NCBI GenBank assembly: GCA_004321885.1 | Contig: SCQK01000014.1 | Span: forward strand, 75,646 to 139,645 | Direction of reading: 5' to 3' | Length of the DNA: 64,000 nucleotides | From: Patescibacteria group bacterium | GTDB taxonomy: Bacteria > Patescibacteriota > Patescibacteriia > Magasanikbacterales > GWA2-37-8 | Part shown: positions 8,655 to 58,115 of the stretch, in pieces | Layout of the letters: each line of letters starts with the position of its first letter | How positions within the stretch are numbered: position 1 is the first letter of the stretch | Translations under genes and position numbers: made by a program | The notes under the pieces: generated by a model | What the model was told of the DNA's origin: nothing | Databases searched by the model: none | What the model saw: the letters and a program-made list of their open reading frames with translations, nothing else

Positions 8655-9986
8655 TCAAATTTTTATTTCTTTGATTTTATTTTGTAAAGTTTGTTTTGAT
8701 TTTACTCGCACCCGCACAAATTCCGGCGTATATCCCGCGAAGTAGCCGGATTTTTTTTGTTCAAACAGTACTGGGCGGGTTTTGCCGGTGAATTTGGCCG
8801 CGAATTTTTTGGCCTCGGCTTTGGAAATTTTGAGCAGTTTTTTTACGCGTTCGGTTTTGATTTTGTCCTGCACTTGGTTTGGCATTTTGGCCGCGGCAGT
8901 GCCAGGGCGCGGAGAAAAAGGGAAAACGTGTATTTTGGCAAAGCCCCCGCCAAAGGCGGGTCCGTCTTGGGCGGACATTTTTTTTACAAACGCGCAGGTC
9001 TCGGTGAATTCTTTTTCGGTCTCGCCCGGGAAGCCGACGATAATGTCGGTGGTAAAAGAAAACAGGGGATTGGCCTGGCGCAGTTTTTGAACAATTCCAA
9101 GATATTGTTTCGCGTTATATCCGCGCCGCATCCGTTTGAGCATTGTGTCCGAGCCCGATTGCAAGGACAAATGCCAATGCGGCATCAATCTGTTTTGTCC
9201 CCCCTTTTTAAGGGGGGAATAAAAGGGGGGTAAGAATAATTTTATTAATTTTTCCGAAATCAGCCGCGGGTCCAGCGAACCGAGCCGGATGCGCTCTATT
9301 TTTGTTTCTCGTAAAATTTTTTTCAGCAGTTCGGCCAAGTCTCCCCCACTGCCAGAGGGGGGGACGAAGGGGGGGTGGGAGCTGTCTTTGTATTGGCAAA
9401 TATTTACTCCGGTCAGTACCGCTTCTTTATAGCCGTCTTTTTCCGCTTCTTTGATTTTTTTTATCACCGCCTCGGATGGCACACTTCGCGTTCGGCCGCG
9501 GAAAGATGGAATAATACAATAGGCGCAGTTAAAATTACAGCCGGTTTGGATTTTGATGAGAGTGCGTGTTCTATCATTGCGTAGCCGAGCGGTCGGATGT
9601 GTTCGTAGCGCCTTATGCCGCCGCAGCGGCATGGCCGAGGCCTCGCGGCCGAGGGAAGCGAGAACACATCCGACCGCTCCTCTGCGAGCTTCGCAATGGC
9701 TCACAACTTCCTCATTCCCTCTCGCCACAAAATCAATCTCGGGCAAATCCTTGTTTTCCAGACAGCCAACCGCGATTACGTACGCCCCGCGCCGTTTGGC
9801 CCGCCGAATCATCTCGCGCGTGGTCTGACTGGCGTCCACGGTCACTCCGCAGGCGCGCACCACGGCTACGTCTTCGTGCGCGCCAAAAAGCACGACAGAA
9901 AAACCTCGCTGTACGAGGTCTTTTTTCAGTTCTTCTGTCTCGGCTTGATTCAATTTGCACCCCAGGGTGTGGAATGAAATTTTCAC
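8655..9986 (-). CDS. radical-SAM methylthiotransferase, MiaB/MtaB/RimO family, carrying three in-frame repeat insertions
   Basis: MKISFHTLGCKLNQAETEEL (UPF0004 domain), the radical-SAM cysteine motif CNFNCAYCIIP, and a C-terminal TRAM-like end. Three GC-rich palindromic segments are inserted in frame. Confidence 0.8.
   Translation of the reverse strand: MKISFHTLGCKLNQAETEELKKDLVQRGFSVVLFGAHEDVAVVRACGVTVDASQTTREMIRRAKRRGAYVIAVGCLENKDLPEIDFVARGNEEVVSHCEARRGAVGCVLASLGREASAMPLRRHKALRTHPTARLRNDRTRTLIKIQTGCNFNCAYCIIPSFRGRTRSVPSEAVIKKIKEAEKDGYKEAVLTGVNICQYKDSSHPPFVPPSGSGGDLAELLKKILRETKIERIRLGSLDPRLISEKLIKLFLPPFYSPLKKGGQNRLMPHWHLSLQSGSDTMLKRMRRGYNAKQYLGIVQKLRQANPLFSFTTDIIVGFPGETEKEFTETCAFVKKMSAQDGPAFGGGFAKIHVFPFSPRPGTAAAKMPNQVQDKIKTERVKKLLKISKAEAKKFAAKFTGKTRPVLFEQKKSGYFAGYTPEFVRVRVKSKQTLQNKIKEIKI
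9196..9236. repeat. family-A GC palindrome (CCCCCCTTTTTAAGGGGGG...AAAAGGGGGG) in frame in the miaB-like gene
   Basis: Translates as PPFYSPLKKGGQ within the ORF. Confidence 0.7.
9336..9382. repeat. family-A element with CCCCC...GGGGGGG arms and a GGGGGGGTGGGAGC tail, in frame in the miaB-like gene
   Basis: Translates as HPPFVPPSGSGGD. The same tail motif recurs at 46831-46843 and 53875-53888. Confidence 0.7.
9585..9678. repeat. 94 bp structured insert inside the miaB-like gene: 18 bp perfect inverted repeat (GAGCGGTCGGATGTGTTC / GAACACATCCGACCGCTC) around a GC-rich 56 bp core
   Basis: Inverted repeat read directly from the sequence. It is translated in frame as EVVSHCEARRGAVGCVLASLGREASAMPLRRHKALRTHPTARL. 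Confidence 0.7.
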
Positions 9987-17483: not shown

Positions 17484-18323
17484 ATGGAGAAAACAAAAAT
17501 CGCAATTTTTAAGGGCAAAAAAGTTCGCAAGATTCTATTTCAAAAAGAGTGGTGGTTTGTCATAAATGATGTCATTGAAATGTTGACGGATTCAGGTGAT
17601 CCAGCCCAATACTTTAAGAGATTAAAAGAAAGAGACGAGGAGCTGGCAAAAATCGTAGACAAAGGGGGGGTACAATTTGTACCACCCCTCATGCTTGTTG
17701 TAGAAACTGCCGGTGGCAAGCAAAAAATGTATTGCTGGAATACTGAGGGTATTTTTCGTCTTGTACAATCAATCCCGTCGCCAAAAGCCGAGCCATTTAA
17801 GCGCTGGCTGGCCAGGGTGGGCTATGAGCGTGTGCAGGAAATTGAGAACCCGGAATTGGCCACTAAACGAACGCGGATGTTATACAAGTTAAAAGGCTAT
17901 CCTGATAGTTGGATAGAAAAACGAATGCGCGGCATTGAAGTGCGCGAAACCCTGACTGACCAGTGGCAAAAACACGAAGTGAAACTGCAAAAAGAGTACG
18001 AAATACTAACCGCCGAAATCGCCCGTGCCACTTTCGGCCTTACTCCAAGCCAGCATAAAAAAGTTAAAGGTTTAAAAAGAGAAAATCTGCGCGACCACAT
18101 GAACGACTTGGAGTTGATTTTTTCCATGCTTGGCGAAGCCGCCACCACGGAAATCGTCCGCAACGAACATCCGCTTGGATTTGTGAAAAATAAAAAAGTT
18201 GCCAAACGCGGCGGCGGCGTGGCCGGTTTGGCCAGAAAGAAGATGGAAATAGAAACCGGTAAAAAAGTAGTGAGCAAAGAAAATTATCTGCCGCTGATAA
18301 AAAGAAAAAAGCGGTTAAAATAA
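17484..18323 (+). CDS. Bro-N domain protein (DinD/antirepressor-like)
   Basis: N-terminal IAIFKGKKVRKILFQKEWWFVINDVIEML matches the Bro-N fold signature. The C-terminus is basic. Confidence 0.4.
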   Translation: MEKTKIAIFKGKKVRKILFQKEWWFVINDVIEMLTDSGDPAQYFKRLKERDEELAKIVDKGGVQFVPPLMLVVETAGGKQKMYCWNTEGIFRLVQSIPSPKAEPFKRWLARVGYERVQEIENPELATKRTRMLYKLKGYPDSWIEKRMRGIEVRETLTDQWQKHEVKLQKEYEILTAEIARATFGLTPSQHKKVKGLKRENLRDHMNDLELIFSMLGEAATTEIVRNEHPLGFVKNKKVAKRGGGVAGLARKKMEIETGKKVVSKENYLPLIKRKKRLK

Positions 18324-18327
18324 TTTT

Positions 18328-20157
18328 TTACTCCCACTCAATAGTTCCGGGTGGTTTGTTGGTGAGGTCGTAGAAGATGAAGTCCACGGCGTTTAGAGCG
18401 TGGATTTTTTTGATGATTTTTTTCAGAGTGGGCGAGGGTATGACGCCAAACGAGACGGTCATCGCTTCTTCTGATTCCACGGGTCGCAGGACAATTGATT
18501 CGCCGTGCTTGTGCCCAAACGGCACGAGCACCGTGGGCATTTGCCAGATTTTTTGGCATTGCTTGTCGGTCAAAATGGCGCTGTCGGCGATGTCATCTAT
18601 TTTTCGCAAAAGGTCCAGCCGTTTTTTGGTAAGATACGCTTTTTTCAGCGTGGCTTTTGGCAATGATTTTTTGTCGCCGGAAACAAGCAGTAGAACGCGG
18701 TTGATGTCTTTGTGGGCGTTGGTGATTTTAGGAGAAAGGGATTGATAATACCCCCACCCGGCCTCCCCCTTATAAAGGGGGAGGGGACCTGTGATAACGG
18801 CGGGGTGGGCGTAGGAGCGCTCGTCGCCTTGCACGCCCACGGATTTGATGGGGAGACGCCAAATTGTTGGCTCCACAGCCCCGACTAAGTCGGGGACTAT
18901 GGAGCCAGCGTCGTTTGATCCTTCCGAGCACAGACAGCGAATGGCCAGGCCCGGGCCCGGAAAGGGATGGCGGTTTATCAATTTTTGCGGCAGACCGAGC
19001 TTAAGGCCGATGGCGCGCACTTCGTCTTTGTACAAATCCTTAATCGGCTCTATGATTTTTCCTTCGGCGATCATTTGTTTTATCCGCGGTACGCGATTGT
19101 GATGCGTTTTTATGACGTCGGCGTTTTTGGTGCCGCCCGATTCAATAGTGTCGGGATAAATGGTGCCTTGGCCGACCAACCATTTGTCTCCGGTCAATTT
19201 TTTTCTACCAGACCCGCCTTTGGCGGGTTCGGCCATTACTTTGTCCACAATATCCAAAAACAAATCGCCGATGATTTTTCTTTTTTGTTCCGGATCAGAC
19301 ACGCCTTTGAGCGCGGATAAAAATTCTTTTTCGGCGTTATACACCCGCAAGTTGTCTCCCAGTCGCTTCAGAGCCGCTATGATTTTTTTTGTCTCATCCA
19401 ACCGCATCAGGCCGCTGTCAATGTGCAAGCCGAAAACCCTTTTTTCGCCAAGCACTTTTCGCAATAGGGCGAAACAAACCGTGGAATCAACGCCGCCGGA
19501 GACGAGCAAGAAAACATTTTTACCGCCCGCTTCCTTTTTTATATTTTTTTCAATTTGATCCAGCATTGTCTCTGTCGTCCAGTTTTTTTCCGCCCCGCAA
19601 ATATTTAAAATAAAATTGGCCAGAATTTTTTTTCCTTCTTTCGTGTGATTTACTTCCGGATGAAACTGAAAGCCGAAGAACTTTTTTGATAAATTTTGCA
19701 TGGCCGCCACCGAACGGTTGCCGGTTGAAGCGATTGGCGTAAAACCGAACGGCAGTTTGTCCACGTGATCGCCGTGGCTCATCCAGACAACGGTATTTTT
19801 ACTTACGCCCGAAAAAATCGGCGAGGCGCTGACGGATAATTTCGCCAAACCGTATTCACGCGCCTTGCCCGATTCAACGCGCCCGCCAAAAAAATCTGCC
19901 ATCAACTGATGCCCGTAGCACAGACCCAAAATCGGCGCGCTGAGCGTAAAAATTTTTTTATCAAAAGGCAAACGCGCGTCGCGCACCAGCGAACGCGGAC
20001 CGCCGGAAAGGATGATTCCACACGCGTTTTTCAATCGTTCGGCTTTGACGTTATTCGGGTAAATACGTGAAATAACGCCCAGTTCGCGCACGCGACGGGC
20101 GATGAGATGGGTGTACTGGGAACCGAAATCAAGGATGGCGATTTCACTTTTTGGCAT
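18328..20157 (-). CDS. guaA: GMP synthase (glutamine-hydrolysing) with a roughly 95 aa in-frame insertion derived from palindromic repeats
   Basis: ILDFGSQYTHLIARRVRELGV (GATase), SGGVDSTVCFALL (PP-loop) and C-terminal KPPGTIEWE are conserved. Start set at the ATG at 20157; the longer ORF to 20532 overlaps the guaB promoter. Confidence 0.85.
   Translation of the reverse strand: MPKSEIAILDFGSQYTHLIARRVRELGVISRIYPNNVKAERLKNACGIILSGGPRSLVRDARLPFDKKIFTLSAPILGLCYGHQLMADFFGGRVESGKAREYGLAKLSVSASPIFSGVSKNTVVWMSHGDHVDKLPFGFTPIASTGNRSVAAMQNLSKKFFGFQFHPEVNHTKEGKKILANFILNICGAEKNWTTETMLDQIEKNIKKEAGGKNVFLLVSGGVDSTVCFALLRKVLGEKRVFGLHIDSGLMRLDETKKIIAALKRLGDNLRVYNAEKEFLSALKGVSDPEQKRKIIGDLFLDIVDKVMAEPAKGGSGRKKLTGDKWLVGQGTIYPDTIESGGTKNADVIKTHHNRVPRIKQMIAEGKIIEPIKDLYKDEVRAIGLKLGLPQKLINRHPFPGPGLAIRCLCSEGSNDAGSIVPDLVGAVEPTIWRLPIKSVGVQGDERSYAHPAVITGPLPLYKGEAGWGYYQSLSPKITNAHKDINRVLLLVSGDKKSLPKATLKKAYLTKKRLDLLRKIDDIADSAILTDKQCQKIWQMPTVLVPFGHKHGESIVLRPVESEEAMTVSFGVIPSPTLKKIIKKIHALNAVDFIFYDLTNKPPGTIEWE
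18750..18786. repeat. family-A palindrome CCTCCCCCTTATAAAGGGGGAGG inside guaA
   Basis: Translated on the minus strand as PLPLYKGEAGW. Confidence 0.7.
18869..18906. repeat. family-C palindrome GGCTCCACAGCCCCGACTAAGTCGGGGACTATGGAGCC inside guaA
   Basis: Translated as AGSIVPDLVGAVEP. A near-identical copy sits at 58028-58065. Confidence 0.7.
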
Positions 20158-23081: not shown

Positions 23082-23807
23082 GTGAAAATATTTATTCGCG
23101 ACGACGCGGACCAAAGCGTGTATAACGAAATTTTTAAGCTGGGCGAATATCGCGCCGCGGACAAAGCCATAAAAAACGCGCGTGAACCCGTTATAGACGT
23201 CGGCGCGCACGCCGGCTTTTTTAGTTTGTATTGCCGCGCGCTCAATCCCCAGGTGAAAATTTTCGCCATTGAACCCGAGCCGGAAAATTTTAAGCAGTTA
23301 CAAAAACACATCGCGGGCAACAATATTAAGGGCGTGGAGCCGGTGCCAGCCGCTTTGGCCGGCGAGACCGGGGAGAGGGAGTTGATAATATCCAAAGACA
23401 ATCATAATCATCGGCTCCGATTACCCCCTCCTCGCCTCCCCCTTATAAAGGGGGAGGACAATTTCCCTCCCCTTGATAAGGGGAGGGCGAGGGAGGGGTA
23501 CTGGGTCGCGGCTTTTTCCTTGGGTGATTTTTGCCGGCGTTATAAAATCAAAAACGTCGCTTTGCTCAAAATGGACATAGAAGGAGGAGAGGAAGAAACG
23601 TTCAAAAGTGCGAGCGCGTCTGATTTGGCTATGGTAAAAAACGTAATTTTGGAGTATCATGGTAATAACTTCGCGCCAATAGAACAAAAATTGCGCGAAA
23701 ACGGTTTTGGAGTACAGAAATTTCCGTCCAAGTTTGATAATAAAATGGGTTTTTTGTTTGCACGCAATAAAAGGTATGTCTCACCAAGCATGGATAGTGG
23801 CGGTTGA
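23082..23807 (+). CDS. FkbM-family methyltransferase with in-frame palindromic insertion
   Basis: VIDVGAHAGFFSL...FAIEPEPENF...LLKMDIEGGEEE is the FkbM signature. The insert is translated as HRLRLPPPRLPLIKGEDNFPPLDKGRAREGYW. GTG start. Confidence 0.55.
   Translation: MKIFIRDDADQSVYNEIFKLGEYRAADKAIKNAREPVIDVGAHAGFFSLYCRALNPQVKIFAIEPEPENFKQLQKHIAGNNIKGVEPVPAALAGETGERELIISKDNHNHRLRLPPPRLPLIKGEDNFPPLDKGRAREGYWVAAFSLGDFCRRYKIKNVALLKMDIEGGEEETFKSASASDLAMVKNVILEYHGNNFAPIEQKLRENGFGVQKFPSKFDNKMGFLFARNKRYVSPSMDSGG
23418..23500. repeat. tandem pair of family-A palindromes (CCTCCCCCTTATAAAGGGGGAGG and CCCTCCCCTTGATAAGGGGAGGG with a CGAGGGAGGGG tail)
   Basis: Lies in frame inside the methyltransferase gene. 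Confidence 0.7.
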
Positions 23808-29034: not shown

Positions 29035-29067
29035 AGTCATTCCCCCGACTTAGTCGGGGGAATCCAG
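29035..29067. repeat. family-B element (CCCCCGACTTAGTCGGGGG core) abutting the start of the 27879-29033 gene
   Basis: agtcattcccccgacttagtcgggggaatccag. Confidence 0.7.
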
Positions 29068-29074
29068 TCGTCAA

Positions 29075-29713
29075 CTAAAACAATATCGCCGCATGCGGCA
29101 TTCTCGCTTTCAAAGTCCTAATCGCGCTCTTGGGAATGGGATTGCCGATAAGGTTCAGCTCGGTCAGATTTTTTAATCCGGCGATGCCGGCGGGAACGGA
29201 CGTTAATTTGTTGTAAGAAAAATCCAAAATTTGCAGTGATTTAATTTCTAAAATTTTTGCCGGGATTGAGCGGTAGGTATTTTTGGCCAGAGATAAATGT
29301 GTGAGTTTTTTCAGGTTGGCGATTTCATCGGGCATGGTGTCAATTTTGTTTTCGCCGTAGTTTAGGGTTTCCAGGTTGCCGAGCTGGCCGATTTCGGCCG
29401 GGATGCCGGTCATATTATTATTGCTCGCGTCCAAGAATTTCAAATTTTGCAAATGGCGGATTTCGGCCGGCAAGGCGCCGGTGAGATTGTTGCCGGACAA
29501 GTCCAAAATTTCCAGCGCGGTTTTGCTAAAAATATCCATGGGTACTTTGGATAAGCCGCGCTCGCTAAGGTCAAGCTGGGTCTGGCTTTGCGGTATGCGC
29601 GGCGCGAAAGTTTTCAGCGCCCCATCCCGCGATTTGGCAAAGTATAAAATACCGGCCGCGGCCACAACGAGCAAAGCAATAATCGCTCCAAGCGTTACTT
29701 TTTTTTGAGGCAT
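29075..29713 (-). CDS. leucine-rich repeat protein, membrane anchored
   Basis: N-terminal TM helix (TLGAIIALLVVAAAGIL), then at least 7 LRRs (LDLSGNNLTGALPAEI, LDASNNNMTGIPAEI and others). Start at the ATG at 29713; the upstream ORF extension is made of palindromic repeats. Confidence 0.7.
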   Translation of the reverse strand: MPQKKVTLGAIIALLVVAAAGILYFAKSRDGALKTFAPRIPQSQTQLDLSERGLSKVPMDIFSKTALEILDLSGNNLTGALPAEIRHLQNLKFLDASNNNMTGIPAEIGQLGNLETLNYGENKIDTMPDEIANLKKLTHLSLAKNTYRSIPAKILEIKSLQILDFSYNKLTSVPAGIAGLKNLTELNLIGNPIPKSAIRTLKARMPHAAILF

Positions 29714-29727
29714 ATATTTGTGGTTCC

Positions 29728-29800
29728 TCTCCCCTTTACAAGGGGGAGGCTTGTCACCACACCAAAAATTTTGGTGTGGTGACAGAGAGGGGGTAATCCT
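29728..29800. repeat. nested palindromes: family-A CCCCTTTACAAGGGGGAGG, then CACCACACCAAAAATTTTGGTGTGGTG (an empty inverted-repeat pair of the tRNA-Gly element family), then AGAGAGGGGG
   Basis: Read directly in the intergenic region between the LRR gene and the SHOCT gene. Confidence 0.65.
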
Positions 29801-29801
29801 C

Positions 29802-30050
29802 TCACATTTCAATATCTTTTCTCATTTCCGCGAATTGCGCTTTGGTTATTTCGCCTTTGACGTATCTCTCTTTGAGAATGGCGAGCGCGTCGGCGCGCGT
29901 TGGGCTAGTTCTGGGCGGTTCGTGGTCGCGGCGCTCGCGCGAACCCTGCACCAGTGAAACAATACCCCATATCAGCGCCATCCAAAAAAGCAGCATAAAC
30001 ACCGGGCCGATAATTCCGTATCCTCCCCAGTTGGTAAATGGGAACATCAT
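29802..30050 (-). CDS. SHOCT-domain small membrane protein
   Basis: TM helix plus a C-terminal LAILKERYVKGEITKAQFAEMRKDI, the SHOCT motif. Confidence 0.5.
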   Translation of the reverse strand: MMFPFTNWGGYGIIGPVFMLLFWMALIWGIVSLVQGSRERRDHEPPRTSPTRADALAILKERYVKGEITKAQFAEMRKDIEM

Positions 30051-30057
30051 AAATTAT

Positions 30058-30092
30058 TGTCATTCCGGTCGCCTGCGGCGGCCGGAATCCAG
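30058..30092. repeat. family-B element tgtcattccggtcgcctgcggcggccggaatccag
   Basis: The same core also occurs at 47453-47487 in the opposite orientation. Confidence 0.7.
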
Positions 30093-30139
30093 TTAATTAG
30101 CTCATTCTATCTTAACAGATTATAATTTTTTGTCCATAA

Positions 30140-30168
30140 TTGACATTTTCGCTATTTTTTTCTATAAT
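30140..30168 (+). promoter_or_regulatory. consensus sigma-70 promoter TTGACA-17 bp-TATAAT
   Basis: ttgaca at 30140-30145 and tataat at 30163-30168. It reads into a family-B element, a tRNA-Asn 5'-half copy, the GIY-YIG gene and tRNA-Asn. Confidence 0.6.
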
Positions 30169-30172
30169 AGTT

Positions 30173-30200
30173 GTCATTCCGGACTTGATCCGGAATCCAG
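30173..30200. repeat. family-B element tgtcattccggacttgatccggaatccag placed 4 nt after the -10 box
   Basis: Read directly. Confidence 0.7.
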
Positions 30201-30218
30201 CTCCTTTGAAAATAAATT

Positions 30219-30262
30219 CCGGGGTAGCGCTCCGCCAGCCGGCGGAGGTAGCGCAGTTGGCT
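30219..30262 (+). repeat. partial copy of the tRNA-Asn 5' half (acceptor plus D-arm) with a 13 bp hairpin inserted in the D-loop
   Basis: TCCGGGGTAGCGC-tccgccAGCcggcgga-GGTAGCGCAG compared with the tRNA TCCGGGGTAGCGCAGCGGTAGCGCAG at 30502-30527. Confidence 0.65.
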
Positions 30263-30511
30263 GTGTATACTGTTTACGCTATTTACAATCAAAAAAACGA
30301 TAAAATTTATATTGGACAAACAAAAGACATGGCCGAACGATTAAGGTTGCATAATGAAAAAATCCTTCTTGGTTATACTTATAGATTTGATGGAAATTGG
30401 AAATTAATTTATAGTGTACAGATCGAGAATAGACAAAAAGCTTTACAAAGAGAGAGACAACTTAAAAGTTTTAGAGGCAGAGAATTTATAAAACAATTTA
30501 TTCCGGGGTAG
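30258..30511 (+). CDS. GIY-YIG nuclease family protein (small, YhbQ/UPF0213-like)
   Basis: VYTVYAIYNQKNDKIYIGQTKDMAERLRLHNE is the GIY-YIG core. A GTG start at 30258 lies inside the tRNA-half copy, and the stop overlaps tRNA-Asn by 10 nt. Confidence 0.6.
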
Positions 30512-30573
30512 CGCAGCGGTAGCGCAGAGGACTGTTAATCCTTTGGTCGTGGGTTCGAATCCCACCCCCGGAG
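30502..30573 (+). tRNA. tRNA-Asn(GTT)
   Basis: TCCGGGG-TA-GCGCAGCGGTAGCGC-A-GAGGA-CTGTTAA-TCCTT-TGGTC-GTGGGTTCGAATCCCAC-CCCCGGA-G. Confidence 0.85.
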
Positions 30574-30578
30574 CAAAA

Positions 30579-30707
30579 ACAAAAATACTGGTAATATCCA
30601 GTATTTTTGCTTTTGCTCGGAATACACGAAAAAATACGAACGGATTTGGGCGAATTTTAGGGCGCGGGCGAAATTCCCTCCCCACACCCCTTCCTTTCGC
30701 CCGCGAA
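30579..30707. repeat. left terminal inverted repeat of the island
   Basis: See the island feature. The outermost hairpin probably also terminates tRNA-Asn. Confidence 0.7.
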
Positions 30708-30883
30708 GCGAAACGGGGGCTCTGGTGGACAAAAACTGCCAAAGAACCCGTAAAAAATGTCGGCCGAACTTTATGTTGGCCAAAAGCAAACTTTTCTCTT
30801 TGATATTGAATTACGATTGTTAAAGTGATATAATCAAGTCAATGAGCGTCCCATTCTTGCTATCTTATGTATACTATCATACT

Positions 30884-31090
30884 ATGGAAGAAAAGAAAAC
30901 AATCGGCGAAAAAATAAAAAAATGGAGAGCGAAGAAAGATTTGACACAAGACGCCTTGGCAAAAAAGGCGGATATTCCATATAGCACGATTGCTAAAATT
31001 GAATCAGATGTTATTACGAGGCCAACAATACAGACAGTGCAAAAGCTGGCCGTTGGTTTGGGTATAACACTTGATGAATTATTAAAATAG
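30884..31090 (+). CDS. XRE-family HTH protein, probable C (controller) protein of the R-M module
   Basis: TIGEKIKKWRAKKDLTQDALAKKADIPYSTIAKIE is an HTH_XRE motif, about 70 aa. An extended -10 TGATATAAT sits at 30826-30834, and the gene lies immediately upstream of the methyltransferase (stop-ATG overlap). The ORF also opens at 30842, a possible leaderless start. Confidence 0.55.
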   Translation: MEEKKTIGEKIKKWRAKKDLTQDALAKKADIPYSTIAKIESDVITRPTIQTVQKLAVGLGITLDELLK

Positions 31091-31091
31091 T

Positions 31092-31973
31092 ATGGTTAAA
31101 GGTCACAAAGTGAAAAATGAAAAAATCGATAAAAAAATAGCTTTTGGTTGGTATGGCGGTAAGTTTAGTCATCTTGACTGGCTTTTGCCGCTGTTGCCGG
31201 AAACCGATCATTTTTGTGAGCCGTTTGGTGGCTCTGCTGCCGTTATCATAAACAGAAATCCTTCTTTAATCGAAACATATAATGATTTAGATGGCGAGGT
31301 AGTTAATTTCTTCAGAGTATTAAGGGAACATCCTAACGATCTTATAAGACAAATTGGGCTTACTCCATTTTCGAGGGAAGAATTCAAATATGCTATTGAA
31401 CACGAAGATGATAAAAATCTTTCAGATATTGAGAGGGCTAGGTCTTTTTTTATCCGCGCAAGGCAGGTTAGGACTGGACTTGCTCAAAAAGCTACTTCTG
31501 GTAGATGGGCAAATTGTAAATTAACTTCCAGAGCCGGAATGTCAGGTGCGGTCTCGAGGTGGTTGGGAAGTGTTGACGGGCTAACAGAGATTGCGGAAAG
31601 GCTTTTACGAATACAAATTGAAAATGCTCCTGCAATTGAAGTTGTAAGGCGATATGATAGCCCACAGACCTTATTTTACTGTGATCCTCCGTATACACAT
31701 GATTCTCGAGGTGATATAAATGCCTATAAATTTGAAATGGACAGGGATGCGCATGTCGAACTGGCCGAAACACTAAAACAGGTTAAGGGGTTAGTCGCTA
31801 TATCGGGTTACGACTCTCCCCTAATGAACGAGCTGTATCAAGGATGGAAAAAAATCGCTGGGCCAGTAAAAAATGCAAATTCTATACAACAACCTAGACA
31901 AGAAATTTTATGGGTTAATTATAATATTAATGATAAATCTTTATGGAAAAAGCAGCAAAGATCCTTGATATAA
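31092..31973 (+). CDS. N6-adenine DNA methyltransferase, Dam/D12 class
   Basis: FxGxG motif EPFGGSAAV and catalytic DPPY (LFYCDPPYTHDS). Confidence 0.8.
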   Translation: MVKGHKVKNEKIDKKIAFGWYGGKFSHLDWLLPLLPETDHFCEPFGGSAAVIINRNPSLIETYNDLDGEVVNFFRVLREHPNDLIRQIGLTPFSREEFKYAIEHEDDKNLSDIERARSFFIRARQVRTGLAQKATSGRWANCKLTSRAGMSGAVSRWLGSVDGLTEIAERLLRIQIENAPAIEVVRRYDSPQTLFYCDPPYTHDSRGDINAYKFEMDRDAHVELAETLKQVKGLVAISGYDSPLMNELYQGWKKIAGPVKNANSIQQPRQEILWVNYNINDKSLWKKQQRSLI

Positions 31974-33064
31974 TTTTGAAAAAAACTAATGGGCATCTAG
32001 AAAAACCTTTTATAAAAAATAGGGAGATTTTGCGGAAAATAGAATTTATTTCTCATAATATTCAAAATCGAGCCGGCGTCCGCCTTATTATGTCTTGCTT
32101 ACTGGCGAAACTTGACGATCCAAAAGTTGATGTAAGAAAACCTTATACGGAGATTGGCAGTCGTGATAGTTTTTCGGGCAGAACATATGACGAGGCCTAT
32201 GTCGGCAGTTTTATCACTAAACATCACTTGCCGTGTAATCCAACAACAGCGTTTTTGACGCCAGCTCTACGTAATAGAAATATTGTACTTACGCCAAAAG
32301 TAAATTTAGTCGGCAGGCCACCAGAAATTTATCAATACGTTCTCGACCTCCTAGAATTAGTATTTAAAGGATTTCTTGCCCCAGCCATTCTGCTTGCGGA
32401 AATAATGCGACAACTTGTTCTTTTACGAGATGAAAATCAAAAACGTATAAAATCTTTGTTAAAGAATCTCGGGAAAAATGGTAGTGTGCCTCTTTCGGGT
32501 GAAGACATAATAAAACTTATTGAGCAACATTTAAATTGCAAAGGAGCCAGCAGACTTCCCGTACTTATCGTGGCCGCTGCTTACAACACTATTGGAAATT
32601 TCATCCAAGAAAAAGTATTACCTATCTTTTCTCACAATTCTGCAGATAAACAAACTGGTGCGCTCGGCGATATACAAATTACGTTAATTAATGACGAGAA
32701 TGTAGTAACTAGTTATGAGATGAAGATGAAGAAGGTCACAAAGGACGACATTGATATCGCTCTGCAAAAAATTTCGGGAGTTAAGTACAAAATAGATAAT
32801 TATATTTTTATAACGACGGATATAATAGATGATTCGGTAAAAGAATATGCGAAATCACTTTATGAGCAAACCGGCGGAATAGAGATAGTTGTCTTAGATT
32901 GTATTAGTTTTCTTAGGCATTTTATTCATTTATTCCACCGCTTCAGATTGCCATATCTTGAAGAGTATCAAAAGTTGGTGATGGGTGAAGCAGACAGCGC
33001 GGTCAGTCAGCCCCTTAAAGAGGCATTTCTTGCTCTTCGACAGGCAACAGAAAGCGCGAATTAA
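31943..33064 (+). CDS. putative type II restriction endonuclease (PD-(D/E)xK-like)
   Basis: Overlaps the methyltransferase gene by 31 nt. GDIQITLINDENVVTSYEMK fits a D...ExK nuclease motif. Its position in a C-M-R array supports the call. Confidence 0.45.
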   Translation: MEKAAKILDIILKKTNGHLEKPFIKNREILRKIEFISHNIQNRAGVRLIMSCLLAKLDDPKVDVRKPYTEIGSRDSFSGRTYDEAYVGSFITKHHLPCNPTTAFLTPALRNRNIVLTPKVNLVGRPPEIYQYVLDLLELVFKGFLAPAILLAEIMRQLVLLRDENQKRIKSLLKNLGKNGSVPLSGEDIIKLIEQHLNCKGASRLPVLIVAAAYNTIGNFIQEKVLPIFSHNSADKQTGALGDIQITLINDENVVTSYEMKMKKVTKDDIDIALQKISGVKYKIDNYIFITTDIIDDSVKEYAKSLYEQTGGIEIVVLDCISFLRHFIHLFHRFRLPYLEEYQKLVMGEADSAVSQPLKEAFLALRQATESAN

Positions 33065-33145
33065 TGCAATAAAATAGTAAAAATGCAACCTTTTTCGGTG
33101 TGCGACGTTATATTATTGGGAGCTAAATATGACGATTATTAAAAA

Positions 33146-33802
33146 GTGTTTATCTTTATGGATATTGAAGCCGAAAAAGAACAAATCGTGAAGGCCCAAA
33201 GTAATATCAAGGAGTTTGCGCCTTTATTTGATGAATATTACCCCCAAATACTTAAATATTTAATAGGGCGTATCCGCAGTGTGGAAATTGCCCAGGATAT
33301 TGCATCTGTTACATTCTTGAAAGCCTTAGAGAATATAAAAAAATTTAACTGTCGGGGGATTAGCATATCATCGTGGCTGTACCGAATAGCTACGAACGAG
33401 GTCACTACATATTTTAGAAAAAATAAAACCCTTTCACTCGATGAGATAAGGGCATGTGAAAATTTTGATCCGCCCGCTATCGGCAACCCGTACATTGAAA
33501 TTGTCCAGGCGCAGGAAAAAATTGAAAATGATAAAAAATTTTTGAATCTACAAAATGAGATTCTAAAATTACATATAAATTATCAAGAAGTCATAATGTT
33601 GCGATATTTCGAGAAAAAACAAATAAATGAGATAGCAGAAATTTTAAATAAAAGCGAGGGGACGATTAAATCTCTCCTCCATCGAGGTTTGAAAAAATTA
33701 AAAAAAAATTTTCAACTACACAACAGTGACGCCAGAACGCAACCTTTTCAAAATAAAAACGTTCTAAATATAGAACAGGTACTAGTACCCATAAAATTAT
33801 GA
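33146..33802 (+). CDS. ECF-type sigma-70 family sigma factor encoded on the island
   Basis: Region 2 (FDEYYPQILKYLIGRIRSVEIAQDIASVTFLKALENIKKF...WLYRIATNEV) and region 4 (QEVIMLRYFEKKQINEIAEILNKSEGTIKSLLHRGLKKL). Confidence 0.8.
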   Translation: MFIFMDIEAEKEQIVKAQSNIKEFAPLFDEYYPQILKYLIGRIRSVEIAQDIASVTFLKALENIKKFNCRGISISSWLYRIATNEVTTYFRKNKTLSLDEIRACENFDPPAIGNPYIEIVQAQEKIENDKKFLNLQNEILKLHINYQEVIMLRYFEKKQINEIAEILNKSEGTIKSLLHRGLKKLKKNFQLHNSDARTQPFQNKNVLNIEQVLVPIKL

Positions 33803-34041
33803 ATGACCTACAGGAGTTAGAAAAAATGTTAGAGGAGATCGAGGTTCCGTCTGTGGACTTAAATATAAATAAGGAGTTGTTGAAGAGTTACCTATTTAGA
33901 AATGAGCGGGTTGAATTTGAGAGCAGCAAACAAGATAACTCCATATTTGCCCCGCAGTTTGAATTTTTACCTTGTCCGTCATTTACGTATGATTATTTAA
34001 TTAATGATTTTAATTCAACTACATATGTCCTTAGTTATTAA
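33799..34041 (+). CDS. hypothetical small protein (positioned like an anti-sigma factor or adaptor)
   Basis: 80 aa. It overlaps the sigma gene stop and the next gene's start. No motif was recognised. Confidence 0.3.
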   Translation: MNDLQELEKMLEEIEVPSVDLNINKELLKSYLFRNERVEFESSKQDNSIFAPQFEFLPCPSFTYDYLINDFNSTTYVLSY

Positions 34042-34987
34042 TGTAACCACACCCGAAGGAATTGTGTTAGCAGCTGATAGTCGTCAAAGCTACCGCAACC
34101 AAAAAGGCGCAGCCCGTATAGGCAGCGATAACGCTTCGAAACTGTTTAAATTAAACGACCGGATAGCTGTTGCAGCTACAGGCATGGCCTTTTTACCTGA
34201 AAAAGGAATGCTTAAAAATATAAGTAAATTTATAGAACAATTTAAAAAAATTGAAATTGAAAAAATAGAAAATATATCAGTTAAGGAAACGGCAGAAAAA
34301 ATTCATGAATATTTCAAAAGTATATACAAAGTAGAAGACCAGATAAGGGCAATTGAGCAGCAAATTACAAATGATATCGCAAAAAACGGGGGTAAAATAT
34401 TGAGAACAGACGCTAAAAAAAATATAGTTATTGTAGAGTTTGAAGATGCAAATGGGAAAAAAGGTGTTGCCAACGTAGTTCTGGAGCCCTTGAATTTCAT
34501 GGTGGCTGGTTTTAATAGCAATTTCGATTCGCACGAGGTTTACACGTGTAGAATACCGGGGGGGATAGAATTAAAAAGAAATAGTAGCGTGGATAATAAA
34601 GAGTATGGCGCCTCGTGGGAAGGGCAAAATGATGTGGTAGCGCGAATTGTCTTGGGTTTTGATCCTAGGATAGGGAATATAAAATTTGTACAAGAAGCAG
34701 CGGAAAAAATTGGGAAGGATCAAATTAATGAACAGCTTAGAAATTTAGAATACGCAATACAATGGGGCACCATGACTTTGCAAGATGCTATCGACTTTTG
34801 TGTGTTAATTATAAAAACAACCTCAGCCATTCAAAGATTTTCGGATGGCATTAAAGCTGATCCTGGTGCAATCCCTGGCGTGGGCGGCTCCATCGATGTG
34901 GTGGTCATCAGACCAGAAGAGGGGTTTAATTGGGTAAGTAAAAAGAAGTTATCTATCAATGAAAATTGTTCAGAAATAAATTTTTAA
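34025..34987 (+). CDS. proteasome beta / HslV-like Ntn-hydrolase with C-terminal extension
   Basis: VINV|TTPEGIVLAADSRQSY...ASKLFKLNDRIAVAATGMA matches the N-terminal Thr nucleophile and GxxxD/R pattern of the proteasome beta/HslV family. The start could also be the ATG at 34004. Confidence 0.5.
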   Translation: MSLVINVTTPEGIVLAADSRQSYRNQKGAARIGSDNASKLFKLNDRIAVAATGMAFLPEKGMLKNISKFIEQFKKIEIEKIENISVKETAEKIHEYFKSIYKVEDQIRAIEQQITNDIAKNGGKILRTDAKKNIVIVEFEDANGKKGVANVVLEPLNFMVAGFNSNFDSHEVYTCRIPGGIELKRNSSVDNKEYGASWEGQNDVVARIVLGFDPRIGNIKFVQEAAEKIGKDQINEQLRNLEYAIQWGTMTLQDAIDFCVLIIKTTSAIQRFSDGIKADPGAIPGVGGSIDVVVIRPEEGFNWVSKKKLSINENCSEINF

Positions 34988-35011
34988 TAAATTATTTTTA
35001 ACTAATAGTTT

Positions 35012-35656
35012 ATGAAAAAACCTCTTTATATAATGCTCCATCACTCGGCTGTTTCATACGACAAAAATCCAGATCAATTTGATGCAAATAATAATTACCA
35101 TAAAGCACAGTGGAATTTTAAAGGTTCCCTTGGTTTTTATCTTGGTTACAATTACGAAATATCTAAAACCGGCCTGACACGACAAGCCCGAGCAGACGGT
35201 GAAGTTACGGCAGCATGCTATCAAAAAGATATGAACGATGGTAGGTGTATACATATTTGTATGGATGGCCACTTCGATCAAGAAAAACCAACGCCAGAAC
35301 AAATAGAGGCGTTAAGAAAATTGCTAAAACAAAAATTCGAGGAGCACAATATCAAAAGAGAGAACTTAATTTTTCATAGGGATTACGCCCCTAAAACCTG
35401 TCCGGGGTCTAATTTAGACATAAAAAATATTCGCGATCTTGCCACACCGGAAGGCAATGAATTGTACGCAGCCGCATTGACGCTTATGAAAGAGAATAAT
35501 TCACCAGCTATTTACTTTTTCGGTTTTGATAATATGTGGCACGGACTTGGGGATATGGATATTTTAAAATCATTAAAAGGAAACTATAATCCAGTAGAAA
35601 TAATGAAAGTAGAAAATCTCCCTGATAATATTTCATTTTCAATAGGCAAACAATAA
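35012..35656 (+). CDS. N-acetylmuramoyl-L-alanine amidase, PGRP/amidase_2 type (endolysin-like)
   Basis: MLHHSA...H...GYNYEI...HICMDGHFD...IFHRDYAPKTCPG matches the zinc-binding pattern of T7-lysozyme-type amidases. Confidence 0.75.
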   Translation: MKKPLYIMLHHSAVSYDKNPDQFDANNNYHKAQWNFKGSLGFYLGYNYEISKTGLTRQARADGEVTAACYQKDMNDGRCIHICMDGHFDQEKPTPEQIEALRKLLKQKFEEHNIKRENLIFHRDYAPKTCPGSNLDIKNIRDLATPEGNELYAAALTLMKENNSPAIYFFGFDNMWHGLGDMDILKSLKGNYNPVEIMKVENLPDNISFSIGKQ

Positions 35657-35777
35657 AAAGCTGCGTTTCCGCCAAAGCCGAGCGAAGCTCGGTATCCCGC
35701 CGCAACAAGTAGCGTCGGGATGAAAAACTGGAAATCGTCATTCGTCGGAGATCCCTCCGCCCAAGGCGGGCAGGCAC

Positions 35778-35905
35778 CGCGGGCGGAAGGAAGGGGTGTG
35801 GGGAGGGAATTCCGCCCGCGCCCTAAAATTCGCCCAAATCCGTTCGTATCTTTTCATAAGTCCCGAGCAAAAGTAAAAATACTGGTAATATCCAGTATTT
35901 TTTGT
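35778..35905. repeat. right terminal inverted repeat of the island
   Basis: Reverse complement of the left inverted repeat. Confidence 0.7.
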
Positions 35906-35928
35906 TACTATGTTAGTAAATAAAATTT

Positions 35929-36552
35929 ATGCTTGGCCTGACAAAATCCGAACTGAAAATTTTAAAAAGACTCAACACGCCCATAAAAATTCAGAATTTT
36001 TTGGATACCTTTCCGATAAATTGGGAAAAGAAAGGCGAGACATACATGTCGCCCGGCCGGTCGCTTGGCGCGCGCAAGATACATTGTTTTGAGGGCGCGC
36101 TTTTGGCGGCCGCGGCTTTGTGGATAAACGGCGAACAGCCGTTGCTTTTAGACCTAAAAGCCAAAGGCGACTTTGACCATGTGGTGGCGCTGTACAAACG
36201 AAACGGCTATTGGGGGGCGATAAGCAAAACCAATCACGCCACTCTGCGTTGGCGCGACCCGGTGTATAAAACCCTGCGTGAGCTGGCCGTGTCGTATTTC
36301 CACGAATACTTTGACAACAAGTTTTACAAAAAACGCCTGGTCAGTTTTTCCCGGCCGTTTAACTTAAAAAAATACGGCGCCAAGTGGATGGCGGCCGAAG
36401 AAGACCTGCACGAGCTGGTGGATGCTTTGGACCACTGCCCGCACGAAAAAATCTGCCCGCCCAAAAACGCGAAATATATCCGCCGGGCGGACAAAATGGA
36501 GCGTCGCGCCGGCCGGCTGATTGAGTGGAAAAAATCTCATCCGCGTACTTGA
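35929..36552 (+). CDS. hypothetical protein
   Basis: 207 aa ORF. No confident motif; KIHCFEGALLAAAAL could be a cysteine-hydrolase-like site. Confidence 0.4.
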   Translation: MLGLTKSELKILKRLNTPIKIQNFLDTFPINWEKKGETYMSPGRSLGARKIHCFEGALLAAAALWINGEQPLLLDLKAKGDFDHVVALYKRNGYWGAISKTNHATLRWRDPVYKTLRELAVSYFHEYFDNKFYKKRLVSFSRPFNLKKYGAKWMAAEEDLHELVDALDHCPHEKICPPKNAKYIRRADKMERRAGRLIEWKKSHPRT

Positions 36553-42873: not shown

Positions 42874-42902
42874 TGGATTCCGGCTCGGGGGCCGGAATGA
42901 CA
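42874..42902. repeat. family-B element (inverted orientation) tggattccggctcgggggccggaatgaca overlapping the start of the PAP2 gene
   Basis: Read directly. The ATG at 42897 lies inside the GGAATGACA arm. Confidence 0.65.
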
Positions 42903-47063: not shown

Positions 47064-47270
47064 AGAAAAGCGATTACCTGTAATATATAGATGGTGGGCG
47101 CGGAGCGGCGGAAAAAATGTTCTACAACTTTTTTTCATAGGTTCGCCAATATCTGTTTGGCCCTTGGGTCAAACGTGCGGCTTACCACCTACTATCACGG
47201 GACACGTGACGCCGCTTGCGCGCTTAACCCTTTTTTGATTTTACAGTAAAACTGAAAAAAAGCAACGGGT

Positions 47271-47452: not shown

Positions 47453-47487
47453 CTGGATTCCGGTCGCCTGCGACGACCGGAATGACA
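47453..47487. repeat. family-B element (inverted) ctggattccggtcgcctgcgacgaccggaatgaca
   Basis: Same core as the element at 30058-30092. Confidence 0.7.
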
Positions 47488-51822: not shown

Positions 51823-51863
51823 TGTCATTCTGGCTCGGGAGCCAGAATCCATCATTCAATTCA

Positions 51864-52879: not shown

Positions 52880-52913
52880 CTGGATTCCCCCGTACTTAGT
52901 CGGGGGAATGACA
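52880..52913. repeat. family-B element (inverted) ctggattcccccgtacttagtcgggggaatgaca ending 12 nt before the hrcA ATG
   Basis: Read directly. Confidence 0.7.
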
Positions 52914-57969: not shown

Positions 57970-57977
57970 TAATCGCT

Positions 57978-58113
57978 GGCTCCATAGTTGCGAAGCACTA
58001 TGGAGCTCAAATGTTGGTCAGCAATTCGGCTCCACAGCCCCGACTGGGTCGGGGACTATGGAGCCAGCCATAGGATAACACTGGATTCCCCCGACTAAGT
58101 CGGGGGAATGACA
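57978..58113. repeat. array of three palindromic elements (a C-type with alternative core at 57978-58006, a C-type at 58028-58065, and a B-type at 58081-58113) filling the dnaJ / ECF sigma intergenic region
   Basis: Read directly. The B-type ends 2 nt before the ATG at 58116. Confidence 0.7.
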
Positions 58114-58115
58114 AC

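What the first reader, a model, noticed from the sequence alone, without database searches (positions are those of the whole stretch)
18750..18906. guaA carries two different palindromic elements in frame plus a partial duplication of its C-terminal dimerisation block
Between RHPFPGPGLAIR and the C-terminal ...KPPGTIEWE the ORF contains about 95 extra residues. AGSIVPDLVGAVEP comes from the C-type palindrome at 18869-18906, and PLPLYKGEAGW comes from the A-type palindrome at 18750-18786. Between them sits LPIKSVGVQGDERSYAHPAV, which repeats the conserved GuaA C-terminal motif (LPVRSVGVMGDGRxY). That motif occurs again downstream as TVLVPFGHKHGESIVLRPV. Element insertion therefore seems to have been accompanied by a local duplication.
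Basis: seen in the sequence. Interest (0 to 1): 0.6.

Follow-up and report, generated by a model that had tools for sequence, protein, structure and literature searches.

The report
Hairpin repeats inside long-form guaA
This candidate-phyla bacterium's GMP synthase gene carries three short hairpin-forming repeats read in frame as extra surface loops, a Rickettsia-like kind of selfish DNA, while the apparent duplication of its tail is an old two-copy architecture shared with the human enzyme.

Summary
guaA (18328-20157, minus strand, 609 aa) contains the two palindromes at the stated coordinates, both in frame. I found a third one (19212-19228). Each has a near-identical copy elsewhere in the window.

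The "partial duplication" is not recent, not local and not tied to the insertions. It is the D1+D2 tandem of the GMP-synthase C-terminal domain. Every Patescibacteria relative retrieved has it, other bacterial phyla have it, and it aligns collinearly with human GMPS (PDB 2VXO).

The palindromes belong to dispersed families of GC-rich hairpin repeats. The window holds 26 such hairpins against about 1.7 expected. They lie mostly just downstream of genes but also in frame in at least six other genes, including the MiaB-like, FkbM, GrpE and TsaE genes.

In guaA they occupy the least conserved, low-confidence loops. Relatives carry other hairpins in the same loops.

Best reading: REP/RPE-like selfish palindromes tolerated in permissive loops of an intact enzyme. 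How they move is unknown.

This is a new member of a known kind and of moderate interest. Side note: GMPS papers call the D1 domain eukaryote-only, and these bacteria contradict that.

The parts
18328..20157 (-). guaA coding sequence: glutamine-hydrolysing GMP synthase, 609 aa, long form
   Evidence: ORF listing and sequence. NCBIfam PRK00074 scores 528 bits against a cut-off of 400. 100% match to an NCBI protein.
19603..20136 (-). Class-I glutamine amidotransferase domain (residues 8-185)
   Evidence: Pfam GATase, E 2e-44. C80, H166 and E168 are invariant in alignments A3 and A5.
18928..19569 (-). ATP pyrophosphatase core (residues about 197-410) with the P-loop SGGVDS
   Evidence: Pfam NAD_synthase and NCBIfam guaA_Cterm. 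S220-S225 are invariant.
19204..19227 (-). 8-codon insert PAKGGSGR specific to this genome. It contains the palindrome ACCCGCCAAAGGCGGGT (19212-19228).
   Evidence: It is a gap in all 25 relatives. It is one of only three perfect GC-rich hairpins in the gene. A one-mismatch copy lies at 8945-8961, against 0.05 expected. pLDDT for this block is 53 with no secondary structure.
18869..18906 (-). C-type palindrome (38 nt), in frame. It encodes GSIVPDLVGAVE in loop 1, between the ATP-PPase core and D1.
   Evidence: Loop 1 is the most length-variable region of the family.
18643..18867 (-). D1 sub-domain (residues about 431-505): a degenerate extra copy of the GMP synthase C-terminal domain. It carries LPIKSVGVQGDERSY, including R447.
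   Evidence: On its own it hits Pfam GMP_synt_C at E 2.9e-5. It is collinear with human D1. R447 is invariant. The role of the human equivalent, Arg524, is from PMC10526850.
18750..18786 (-). A-type element: a 10-bp-stem hairpin (18762-18784) plus one G/C-tract outer arm, in frame. It encodes PLPLYKGEAGW in loop 2, inside D1.
   Evidence: pLDDT is below 50 at residues 460-462. Loop 2 varies in length among relatives.
18331..18642 (-). D2 sub-domain (residues about 506-609): the canonical C-terminal domain, ending KPPGTIEWE.
   Evidence: Pfam GMP_synt_C, E 7.9e-14, profile positions 12-92.
58028..58065 (.). Second C-type copy, intergenic between dnaJ and a sigma-factor-like gene. It is flanked by a related hairpin (57979-58006) and a B-type hairpin (58085-58109).
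23423..23499 (+). Composite A-type element (outer arm, hairpin, spacer, hairpin, outer arm) in frame in an FkbM-family methyltransferase gene. It adds about 22 residues.
   Evidence: It is absent from the nearest homologues P0122 and P0123.
8945..8961 (-). Second copy of the third guaA palindrome, in frame in a MiaB/MtaB-like radical-SAM gene.
   Evidence: The alignment to MiaB (7MJV) has a 10-residue gap exactly here.

Best explanation
Two independent things are superimposed in this gene.

(1) The long-form enzyme. guaA encodes the long form of GMP synthase that is standard in Patescibacteria. After the amidotransferase and ATP-pyrophosphatase domains come two copies of the C-terminal 'dimerisation' domain: a degenerate D1 followed by the canonical D2. 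By analogy with human GMPS, D1 packs against D2 as an intramolecular pseudo-dimer. It supplies in cis the arginine (R447 here, Arg524 in human) that a partner subunit supplies in short bacterial enzymes. The enzyme is therefore predicted to work as a monomer.

(2) The hairpin repeats. Three short GC-rich hairpin-forming repeats (17-39 nt) sit in frame in three poorly conserved, exposed loops. They belong to dispersed repeat families that pepper this genome. They behave like REP elements or Rickettsia palindromic elements: selfish or near-neutral DNA that spreads through the genome. Within essential genes such elements survive only where they keep the frame, add no stop codon and land in a tolerant loop.

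Shown: repeat identity, enrichment, in-frame position, loop location, and recurrence in other genes and other lineages.
Inferred: that they arrived by insertion, that they are translated, and that they are harmless.
Unknown: the enzyme or process that copies them.
For: Architecture:
- The best sequence hit among solved structures is human GMPS 2VXO. It aligns in two collinear stretches covering D1 and D2.
- The AlphaFold model (pLDDT 80.7) finds 2VXO as its best fold match, E 1e-50.
- The D1-D2 region is 32% identical to the human one over 188 columns, E 3e-22.
- D1 and D2 each hit Pfam GMP_synt_C on their own.
- Both copies are conserved in all aligned relatives and in other phyla.

Repeats:
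- Each guaA palindrome has a second copy in an unrelated context, with about zero expected by chance.
- The window has 26 perfect GC-rich hairpins, against 1.65 +/- 1.3 in Markov simulations.
- The only three perfect GC-rich hairpins in guaA coincide with its three lineage-specific loop segments. The hairpin-free relatives P0002 and P0003 lack those segments.
- The segments have low pLDDT and no regular structure.
- The same kind of in-frame insert is seen, relative to homologues or solved structures, in the FkbM gene and the MiaB-like gene. Hairpins also lie inside the GrpE, TsaE, LRR and PEGA genes.
- Other lineages carry different hairpins in the same guaA loops: P0014, P0017 and P0041; many more judged by their peptides; and a Cloacimonadota enzyme.
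- The A-type stem occurs in more than 120 metagenome contigs. It is mostly intergenic, with 22% inside long open frames.
- In-frame intragenic REPs and RPEs are a documented phenomenon (PMC3733652, PMC10969869).
Against: - No allele close enough to show an empty site exists in the collections; the nearest relative is 72% identical. Insertion boundaries, target duplications and direction of change are therefore not demonstrated.
- At loop 1 the query is no longer than several relatives such as P0008. The C-type element may have replaced older loop sequence rather than added to it.
- The C-type sequence was not found in 185,579 species-representative genomes or in JGI metagenomes. Its copy number is known only as two.
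- No transposase was linked to the repeats.
- Translation of the inserts and the monomeric state are not tested.
- A direct profile comparison of D1 against D2 is not significant (E 0.21). Their homology rests on each matching the canonical domain.
Confidence: 0.8

Rival explanations
1. One reading: insertion of the elements triggered a recent local duplication of the dimerisation motif, or the duplication is an assembly collapse or misjoin.
For: The motif does occur twice, and the first copy lies between the two palindromes.
Against: Both copies are present in every relative from independent assemblies, including those with no palindromes. They are present in other phyla and in human GMPS. 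D1 and D2 are too diverged for a recent event (hhalign E 0.21). The ORF is collinear with homologues across every junction.
Confidence: 0.02
2. The hairpins are selected nucleic-acid signals rather than selfish insertions. Examples would be RNA structures that slow ribosomes at domain boundaries, mRNA stabilisers or processing sites, or DNA sites for a binding protein. Under this view their presence in guaA is functional.
For: - Both differences between the two C-type copies fall in the loop, so the stem is kept.
- Intergenic A-type copies sit 12-20 nt after stop codons, like REPs thought to act on mRNA 3' ends (PMC3733652).
- The C-type lies exactly at the boundary between the ATP-PPase core and D1.
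- The three guaA genes with an A-type hairpin also use CAC CCC codons upstream that extend the pairing.
Against: - The elements are absent from most relatives of an otherwise highly conserved enzyme.
- Different sequences occupy the same loop in different lineages.
- None of them matches an intrinsic terminator or any Rfam family.
- Two copies are too few to show covariation.
Confidence: 0.12
3. The palindromes arose in place, without a mobile intermediate. Candidate processes are hairpin-templated repair, template switching, or gene conversion from other copies guided by short homology.
For: - No target-site duplication or terminal tag is visible on the A and C types.
- At loop 1 there is no net gain in length compared with some relatives.
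- The outer arm of the A-type element is 13/15 complementary to the conserved Y-A-H-P-A codons 35 nt away.
- The C-type looks like a B-type core placed inside the arms of the hairpin at 57979-58006. That suggests recombination among repeats.
Against: - A 38-nt copy with only 2 differences, and exact 23-nt copies, in unrelated loci need a copying process of some kind.
- The same stems occur in more than 120 unrelated metagenome contigs.
- The complementarity to the host codons is no stronger than other chance pairs in the gene.
Confidence: 0.15

Closest known systems
Human GMP synthetase (PDB 2VXO) with D1 and D2 dimerisation sub-domains; 'ensemble A' GMPS of PMC9312489
   Same: The domain order is the same: GATase, ATP-PPase core, D1, D2. 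D1 keeps LPIK(S/T)VGVQGDxRSY with the XMP-contacting arginine. D2 has lost that motif in the same way (IWQMPTVLVPF versus ISQMPVILTPL) and ends in KPPGT(I/T)EWE. 2VXO is the best sequence and fold match.
   Different: The bacterial D1 is shorter, about 75-95 residues against about 128. It lacks the N-terminal helical part of the human D1. The oligomeric state is untested. The literature describes D1 as absent from bacteria (PMC10526850, PMC9312489).
Rickettsia palindromic elements (RPE) and Wolbachia protein-coding palindromic repeats
   Same: They are dispersed palindromic repeats found both between genes and in frame inside many unrelated housekeeping genes. They add peptide segments without breaking the protein (PMC10969869).
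   Different: The elements here are 17-40 nt single hairpins or 77-nt composites, not elements of about 100-150 bp with a conserved peptide. The host is a Patescibacteria lineage. Sequence relatedness to RPE families was not tested.
CGTC-tagged REP superfamily (Di Nocera et al. 2013, PMC3733652), which includes Neisseria dRS3 and R. conorii RPE-4 and RPE-6
   Same: The B and D types in this window are TGTC-ATTCC...GGAAT-CCA(G). That matches the TGTC variant of the tag, a stem starting with A-T and T-A, and a CCA tail. That paper also reports intragenic, in-frame copies and finds no dedicated transposase.
   Different: The two elements actually inside guaA (A and C types) have no CGTC or GTAG tag and no AT-first stem. 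The B and D stems are 10-12 bp with 1-7 nt loops, rather than 8-9 bp stems with 4-5 nt loops. The C-type shares only the inner CCCCGAC-TTA-GTCGGGG core with the B type.
REP/REPIN elements mobilised by RAYT transposases
   Same: They are short, imperfect, extragenic-biased palindromes, often paired or clustered, and usually just downstream of genes.
   Different: There is no GTAG head. No RAYT gene was identified or looked for beyond the ORFs scanned. A sizeable fraction of copies is intragenic.

Membership tests
Long-form (D1+D2) GMP synthetase, human-GMPS type | Class-I glutamine amidotransferase domain with a Cys-His-Glu triad | tested here: met
   Pfam GATase, E 2e-44. C80, H166 and E168 are invariant.
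Long-form (D1+D2) GMP synthetase, human-GMPS type | ATP pyrophosphatase core with the SGGVDS P-loop | tested here: met
   NCBIfam PRK00074 at 528 bits against a 400 cut-off. Residues 220-225 are invariant.
Long-form (D1+D2) GMP synthetase, human-GMPS type | An extra sub-domain (D1), related to the C-terminal domain, inserted between the ATP-PPase core and D2 | tested here: met
   D1 alone hits GMP_synt_C at E 2.9e-5, and D2 at E 7.9e-14. The region is collinear with 2VXO residues 514-697. 2VXO is the top fold hit. A direct D1-versus-D2 profile comparison was not significant.
Long-form (D1+D2) GMP synthetase, human-GMPS type | An arginine in D1 that contacts XMP in cis (human Arg524) | tested here: met
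   R447 aligns with it (the chain numbering is offset by 4) and is invariant. Its role is taken from PMC10526850.
Long-form (D1+D2) GMP synthetase, human-GMPS type | A full-size D1 of about 128 residues: a three-stranded sheet with five helices | tested here: not met
   The bacterial D1 is about 75-95 residues. Only about 20 residues precede its first strand, where human has about 60. It is a shorter variant.
Long-form (D1+D2) GMP synthetase, human-GMPS type | Monomer in solution, with D1 and D2 forming a pseudo-dimer | not testable with these tools
   This needs SEC-MALS or a solved structure.
Rickettsia-type protein-coding palindromic elements (RPE-like) | Palindromic DNA repeated at dispersed loci in the same genome | tested here: met
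   The census found 26 hairpins against 1.65 expected.
Rickettsia-type protein-coding palindromic elements (RPE-like) | Copies lie in frame inside otherwise intact, conserved genes | tested here: met
   guaA carries three. Others are in the FkbM gene, the MiaB-like gene, and the GrpE, TsaE, LRR and PEGA genes.
Rickettsia-type protein-coding palindromic elements (RPE-like) | Inserted peptides lie in exposed, non-conserved parts of the protein | tested here: met
   They fall in variable alignment columns, in stretches with low pLDDT and no regular secondary structure. Surface exposure was not measured because no coordinates were available.
Rickettsia-type protein-coding palindromic elements (RPE-like) | Element length of about 100-150 bp with a family-specific conserved peptide | tested here: not met
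   The elements here are 17-39 nt, and 77 nt for the composite.
CGTC-tagged REP superfamily (PMC3733652) | Unpaired CGTC, TGTC or CCTC tag at one end, a stem starting with A-T and T-A pairs, and a CCA tail | tested here: not met
   The guaA elements (A and C types) have none of these. The B and D types elsewhere in the window do have them, so those types qualify as variants and the guaA ones do not.
REP/REPIN-RAYT system | A GTAG head and a cognate RAYT (Y1 HUH transposase) gene in the genome | not tested
   No GTAG head is seen on any type. Only 64 kb of the genome is available and it was not scanned systematically for transposases.
MITE | Terminal inverted repeats flanking a non-palindromic core, target-site duplication, and a length of 50-500 bp | tested here: not met
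   The elements are simple hairpins of 17-39 nt, and the copies show no flanking direct repeats.

The most novel reading that the evidence does not exclude
In Patescibacteria, and in at least some other phyla, REP-like GC-rich hairpins recurrently colonise the same few permissive loops of essential enzymes. Here these are loops 1 and 2 of long-form GMP synthase, plus loops in the MiaB-like, FkbM, GrpE and TsaE genes. Insertion may be guided by short homology between the element's C-rich arm and host codons such as CAC CCC GCC. Under this reading, selfish hairpins are a major and so far undescribed source of lineage-specific protein loops in streamlined genomes that have almost no intergenic space.

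A second, separate point concerns the D1+D2 GMP synthase architecture. GMPS papers call it a single eukaryotic invention. It is in fact widespread in bacteria and probably shares an origin with the eukaryotic form.
Probability: 0.35. Interest if true: 0.6.

Novelty: new member of a known kind. Interest (0 to 1): 0.42.

Why it matters
First, it removes a false lead. The doubled C-terminal block is neither an assembly error nor a by-product of element insertion. It is the normal long-form enzyme.

Second, it adds a candidate-phyla lineage to the short list of organisms (Rickettsia, Wolbachia, Opitutus and a few others) in which palindromic repeats are read through as protein. At least seven genes in 64 kb are affected, and the same loops are hit repeatedly in different lineages. 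That pattern is useful for asking how such repeats spread and which protein sites tolerate them. It also warns annotators that odd peptides such as PLPLYKGE or IPDLVG in conserved proteins come from repeats.

Third, the bacterial D1+D2 GMP synthases contradict published statements that D1 is confined to eukaryotes. This bears on the origin of the monomeric human-type enzyme.

Tried and rejected
- A direct profile-profile comparison of D1 against D2 (hhalign) was not significant (E 0.21). The homology had to be argued through each copy matching Pfam GMP_synt_C.
- The C-type pattern gave no hit in the GTDB species-representative genomes or in JGI metagenomes. Its wider distribution is therefore unknown.
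- An exact look-up of the GuaA protein to fetch the rest of its contig failed, as it is not on record. No whole-genome census was possible.
- Rfam found only six tRNAs, so no known RNA family covers the hairpins.
- The terminator and promoter scan did not flag any of the three guaA hairpins.
- No target-site duplications or conserved termini were visible in pairwise alignments of the copies.
- Literature searches combining palindromic elements with Patescibacteria or CPR terms returned nothing relevant.
- No model coordinates were available, so solvent exposure could not be computed.
- An NJ tree did not settle whether the A-type hairpins in loop 2 of the query, P0014 and P0041 are one old insertion with losses or independent events.
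Full report
**What is there**

The finding lies in guaA, on the minus strand at 18328-20157. The gene starts at the ATG that gives MPKSEIAILDFGSQ and encodes 609 residues. The protein is 100% identical to an NCBI entry named glutamine-hydrolysing GMP synthase from a Patescibacteria MAG. Its nearest relatives, at 72% identity and below, are mostly unnamed or labelled Candidatus Magasanikbacteria. Pfam and NCBIfam find the amidotransferase domain, the ATP-pyrophosphatase core and the GMP synthase C-terminal domain. guaB (IMP dehydrogenase) lies divergently next to it.

**Checking the observation**

- The 38-nt C-type sequence at 18869-18906 has a second copy at 58028-58065. The copies differ at two bases, both in the loop. 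Shuffles gave none. It folds far better than shuffles do (dG -18.7 kcal/mol, z -7.0).
- The A-type core at 18762-18784 is identical to one at 23435-23457. Similarity extends over 18750-18786.
- I found a third palindrome, ACCCGCCAAAGGCGGGT at 19212-19228. It sits inside an 8-codon insert (PAKGGSGR) that none of 25 aligned relatives has. A one-mismatch copy lies at 8945-8961.
- These three are the only perfect GC-rich hairpins (stem of 7 or more) in the gene. They coincide with its three lineage-specific segments.
- The motif LPIKSVGVQGDERSY lies between the two reported elements. TVLVPFGHKHGESIVLRPV is its positional counterpart downstream.
- The extra length compared with short bacterial enzymes is about 87 residues rather than 95.

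**The 'duplication' is the long-form enzyme**

- The best match among solved structures is human GMPS (2VXO). It aligns in two collinear stretches, and the second covers residues 433-609.
- An AlphaFold model built on 26 homologues (pLDDT 80.7) also finds 2VXO first (E 1e-50).
- The C-terminal 175 residues are 32% identical to the human D1-D2 region (E 3e-22).
- Scanned separately, residues 429-529 (which contain D1) and residues 531-609 (D2) each hit Pfam GMP_synt_C, at E 2.9e-5 and 7.9e-14. A direct D1-versus-D2 profile comparison is not significant, which shows how old the split is.
- Reviews describe the human D1 as an inserted copy of the dimerisation domain that packs on D2, mimics the dimer interface of short enzymes and contributes Arg524 to XMP binding. 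The human enzyme is a monomer (PMC10526850). The equivalent R447 is invariant here.
- All 40 relatives I aligned have both copies, including those with no palindromes. So do long-form enzymes from Oligoflexia, Armatimonadetes, Cloacimonadota and bacteria with large genomes.

The duplication is therefore ancient, unrelated to the elements, and not an assembly artefact.

**What the palindromes are**

The window holds 26 perfect GC-rich hairpins (stem of 9 or more, loop of 8 or less). First-order Markov simulations give 1.65 +/- 1.3. The hairpins fall into recurrent families:
- A: CCCTCCCC-loop-GGGGAGGG, often with C-tract and G-tract outer arms.
- B and D: TGTC-ATTCC...GGAAT-CCA(G).
- C: GGCTCCATAG arms around a B-like core.
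- E: CACACCAAAA/TTTTGGTGTG.

Intergenic copies sit mostly within 20 nt of a stop codon. The 146-nt spacer between dnaJ and the next gene is filled by three of them.

Intragenic copies are all read through:
- The FkbM methyltransferase gene carries a 77-nt composite A-type element. It adds about 22 residues that the nearest homologues lack.
- The MiaB-like gene has 10-residue gaps against MiaB 7MJV exactly at two palindromes.
- Hairpins also lie inside the GrpE, TsaE, LRR and PEGA-domain genes.

**Why they sit in these spots in guaA**

The three segments fall in the least conserved columns of the family alignment. In the model they fall in stretches with low confidence and no regular structure.

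The same loops are hit in other lineages:
- P0014 and P0041 carry different A-like hairpins in loop 2.
- P0017 has three hairpins in loop 1.
- Many other relatives show repeat-type peptides in loop 1, such as IPPPIRGR, FPLLRGND and HCERSEA.
- A Cloacimonadota enzyme has PLDRGR twice in loop 1.

The hairpin-free relatives P0002 and P0003 lack these segments. This pattern fits repeated arrival plus selection for tolerant sites.

**Wider distribution**

- The B-type sequence occurs in several Patescibacteria MAGs and in uncultured Gammaproteobacteria MAGs, with the same TGTC or TGG and GACA or CCA flanks.
- The A-type stem occurs in more than 120 metagenome contigs with GC from 0.32 to 0.70. Of 131 copies, 29 lie deep inside long open frames, against 340 of 600 random positions. 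The copies are therefore biased to intergenic DNA, with a substantial coding minority.
- The C-type was found nowhere else.

**Comparison with known systems**

- In-frame palindromic repeats are known from Rickettsia (RPE), Wolbachia and a few REP-rich species (PMC10969869, PMC3733652).
- The B and D types fit the published definition of CGTC-tagged REPs: a TGTC variant of the tag, an AT-first stem and a CCA tail. That superfamily includes Neisseria dRS3 and R. conorii RPE-4 and RPE-6, and it has no known transposase.
They are much shorter than classical RPEs and show no target duplications.
- They therefore behave like RPE/REP elements, but I do not file them in any named family. I found no paper describing this in Patescibacteria.

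**Open points**

- No near-identical empty allele exists, so insertion boundaries are unproven. At loop 1 the query is no longer than some relatives.
- The outer arm of the A-type element is 13/15 complementary to the conserved Y-A-H-P-A codons 35 nt away. The three guaA genes with an A-like hairpin all use CAC CCC there, and the four without do not. This could reflect homology-guided insertion, overwriting of host codons, or selection for a longer stem. The sample is too small to decide.
- A functional role for the hairpins in RNA or DNA is not excluded. However, none of them resembles a terminator or an Rfam family.

**Side finding**

Two GMPS papers state that the D1 domain is absent from bacteria and arose once in eukaryotes (PMC10526850, PMC9312489). 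The bacterial long forms here share D1, the arginine and the same degenerate D2 motif with the human enzyme. That statement therefore reflects limited sampling.

**Verdict**

The gene is an intact long-form GMP synthase decorated with three REP/RPE-like hairpin repeats in tolerant loops. This is a new member of a known kind and of moderate interest.

Noticed in passing
window 8655-9986 (-), palindromes at 8945-8961 and 9198-9230: A MiaB/MtaB-like radical-SAM methylthiotransferase gene carries two in-frame palindromes, encoding GPAFGGG and PPFYSPLKKGG. Each falls at a 10-residue gap in the alignment to MiaB 7MJV. A further 6-residue gap (SSHPPF) may be a third insert.
   Followed up: partly
window 23082-23807 (+), element at 23423-23499: An FkbM-family methyltransferase carries a 77-nt composite A-type element: two hairpins inside complementary 12-nt outer arms. 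At the same loop, homologues from other Patescibacteria have unrelated repeat-type peptides (PPLKKGGINEPPLFKAG, IPAKAGI). At a second site they have PAGRQG.
   Followed up: partly
window 57970-58115: The whole spacer between dnaJ and a sigma-factor-like gene consists of three adjacent hairpins. The C-type looks like a B-type core placed between the arms of the first hairpin (57979-58006). This hints at nesting or recombination among repeats.
   Followed up: partly
window 29039-29063, 52884-52909, 58085-58109 (B); 30062-30088, 30176-30196, 42877-42898, 47457-47483, 51827-51848 (D); loci L001-L016: ATTCC...GGAAT hairpins with TGTC or TGG and GACA or CCA flanks fit the published CGTC-tagged REP pattern (that of Neisseria dRS3 and RPE-6). 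The identical B-type sequence occurs in Patescibacteria MAGs and, in multiple copies, in uncultured Gammaproteobacteria MAGs.
   Followed up: partly
window 46509-47138 (-), hairpin 46779-46809; window 29075-29812 (-), hairpin 29752-29784: The E-type palindrome (CACACCAAAA/TTTTGGTGTG, encoding PHQKFWCG) lies inside tsaE, where it splits the Pfam TsaE match into two stretches. It also lies inside a leucine-rich-repeat gene. GrpE (53839-53861) and a PEGA-domain gene (61474-61495) carry other in-frame hairpins.
   Followed up: partly
guaA residues 431-609; proteins P0344, P0349, P0360, P0373, P0380, P0422, P0443, P0475: The D1+D2 (human-type) GMP synthase architecture is the norm in Patescibacteria. 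It is also present in Oligoflexia, Armatimonadetes, Cloacimonadota and bacteria with multi-megabase contigs. Two GMPS papers state that D1 is absent from bacteria and arose once in eukaryotes.
   Followed up: partly
window 18799-18813 versus 18750-18761; loci L018, L020: The outer arm of the guaA A-type element is complementary (13/15) to the codons of the conserved YAHPA motif. The three guaA genes with a hairpin in this loop use CAC CCC for His-Pro, and the four without do not. This may be a sign of homology-guided insertion or of stem extension.
   Followed up: partly
window 17484-18323 (+): The gene immediately downstream of guaA encodes a Bro-N domain protein (Pfam E 7e-13). This domain is typical of phage and other mobile-element anti-repressor-like proteins.
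   Followed up: no
window 30000-36000: A low-GC stretch (0.36-0.39, against about 0.50 elsewhere) begins beside tRNA-Asn (30502-30574) and a GIY-YIG nuclease-domain gene (30140-30511). It may be an integrated foreign element.
   Followed up: no
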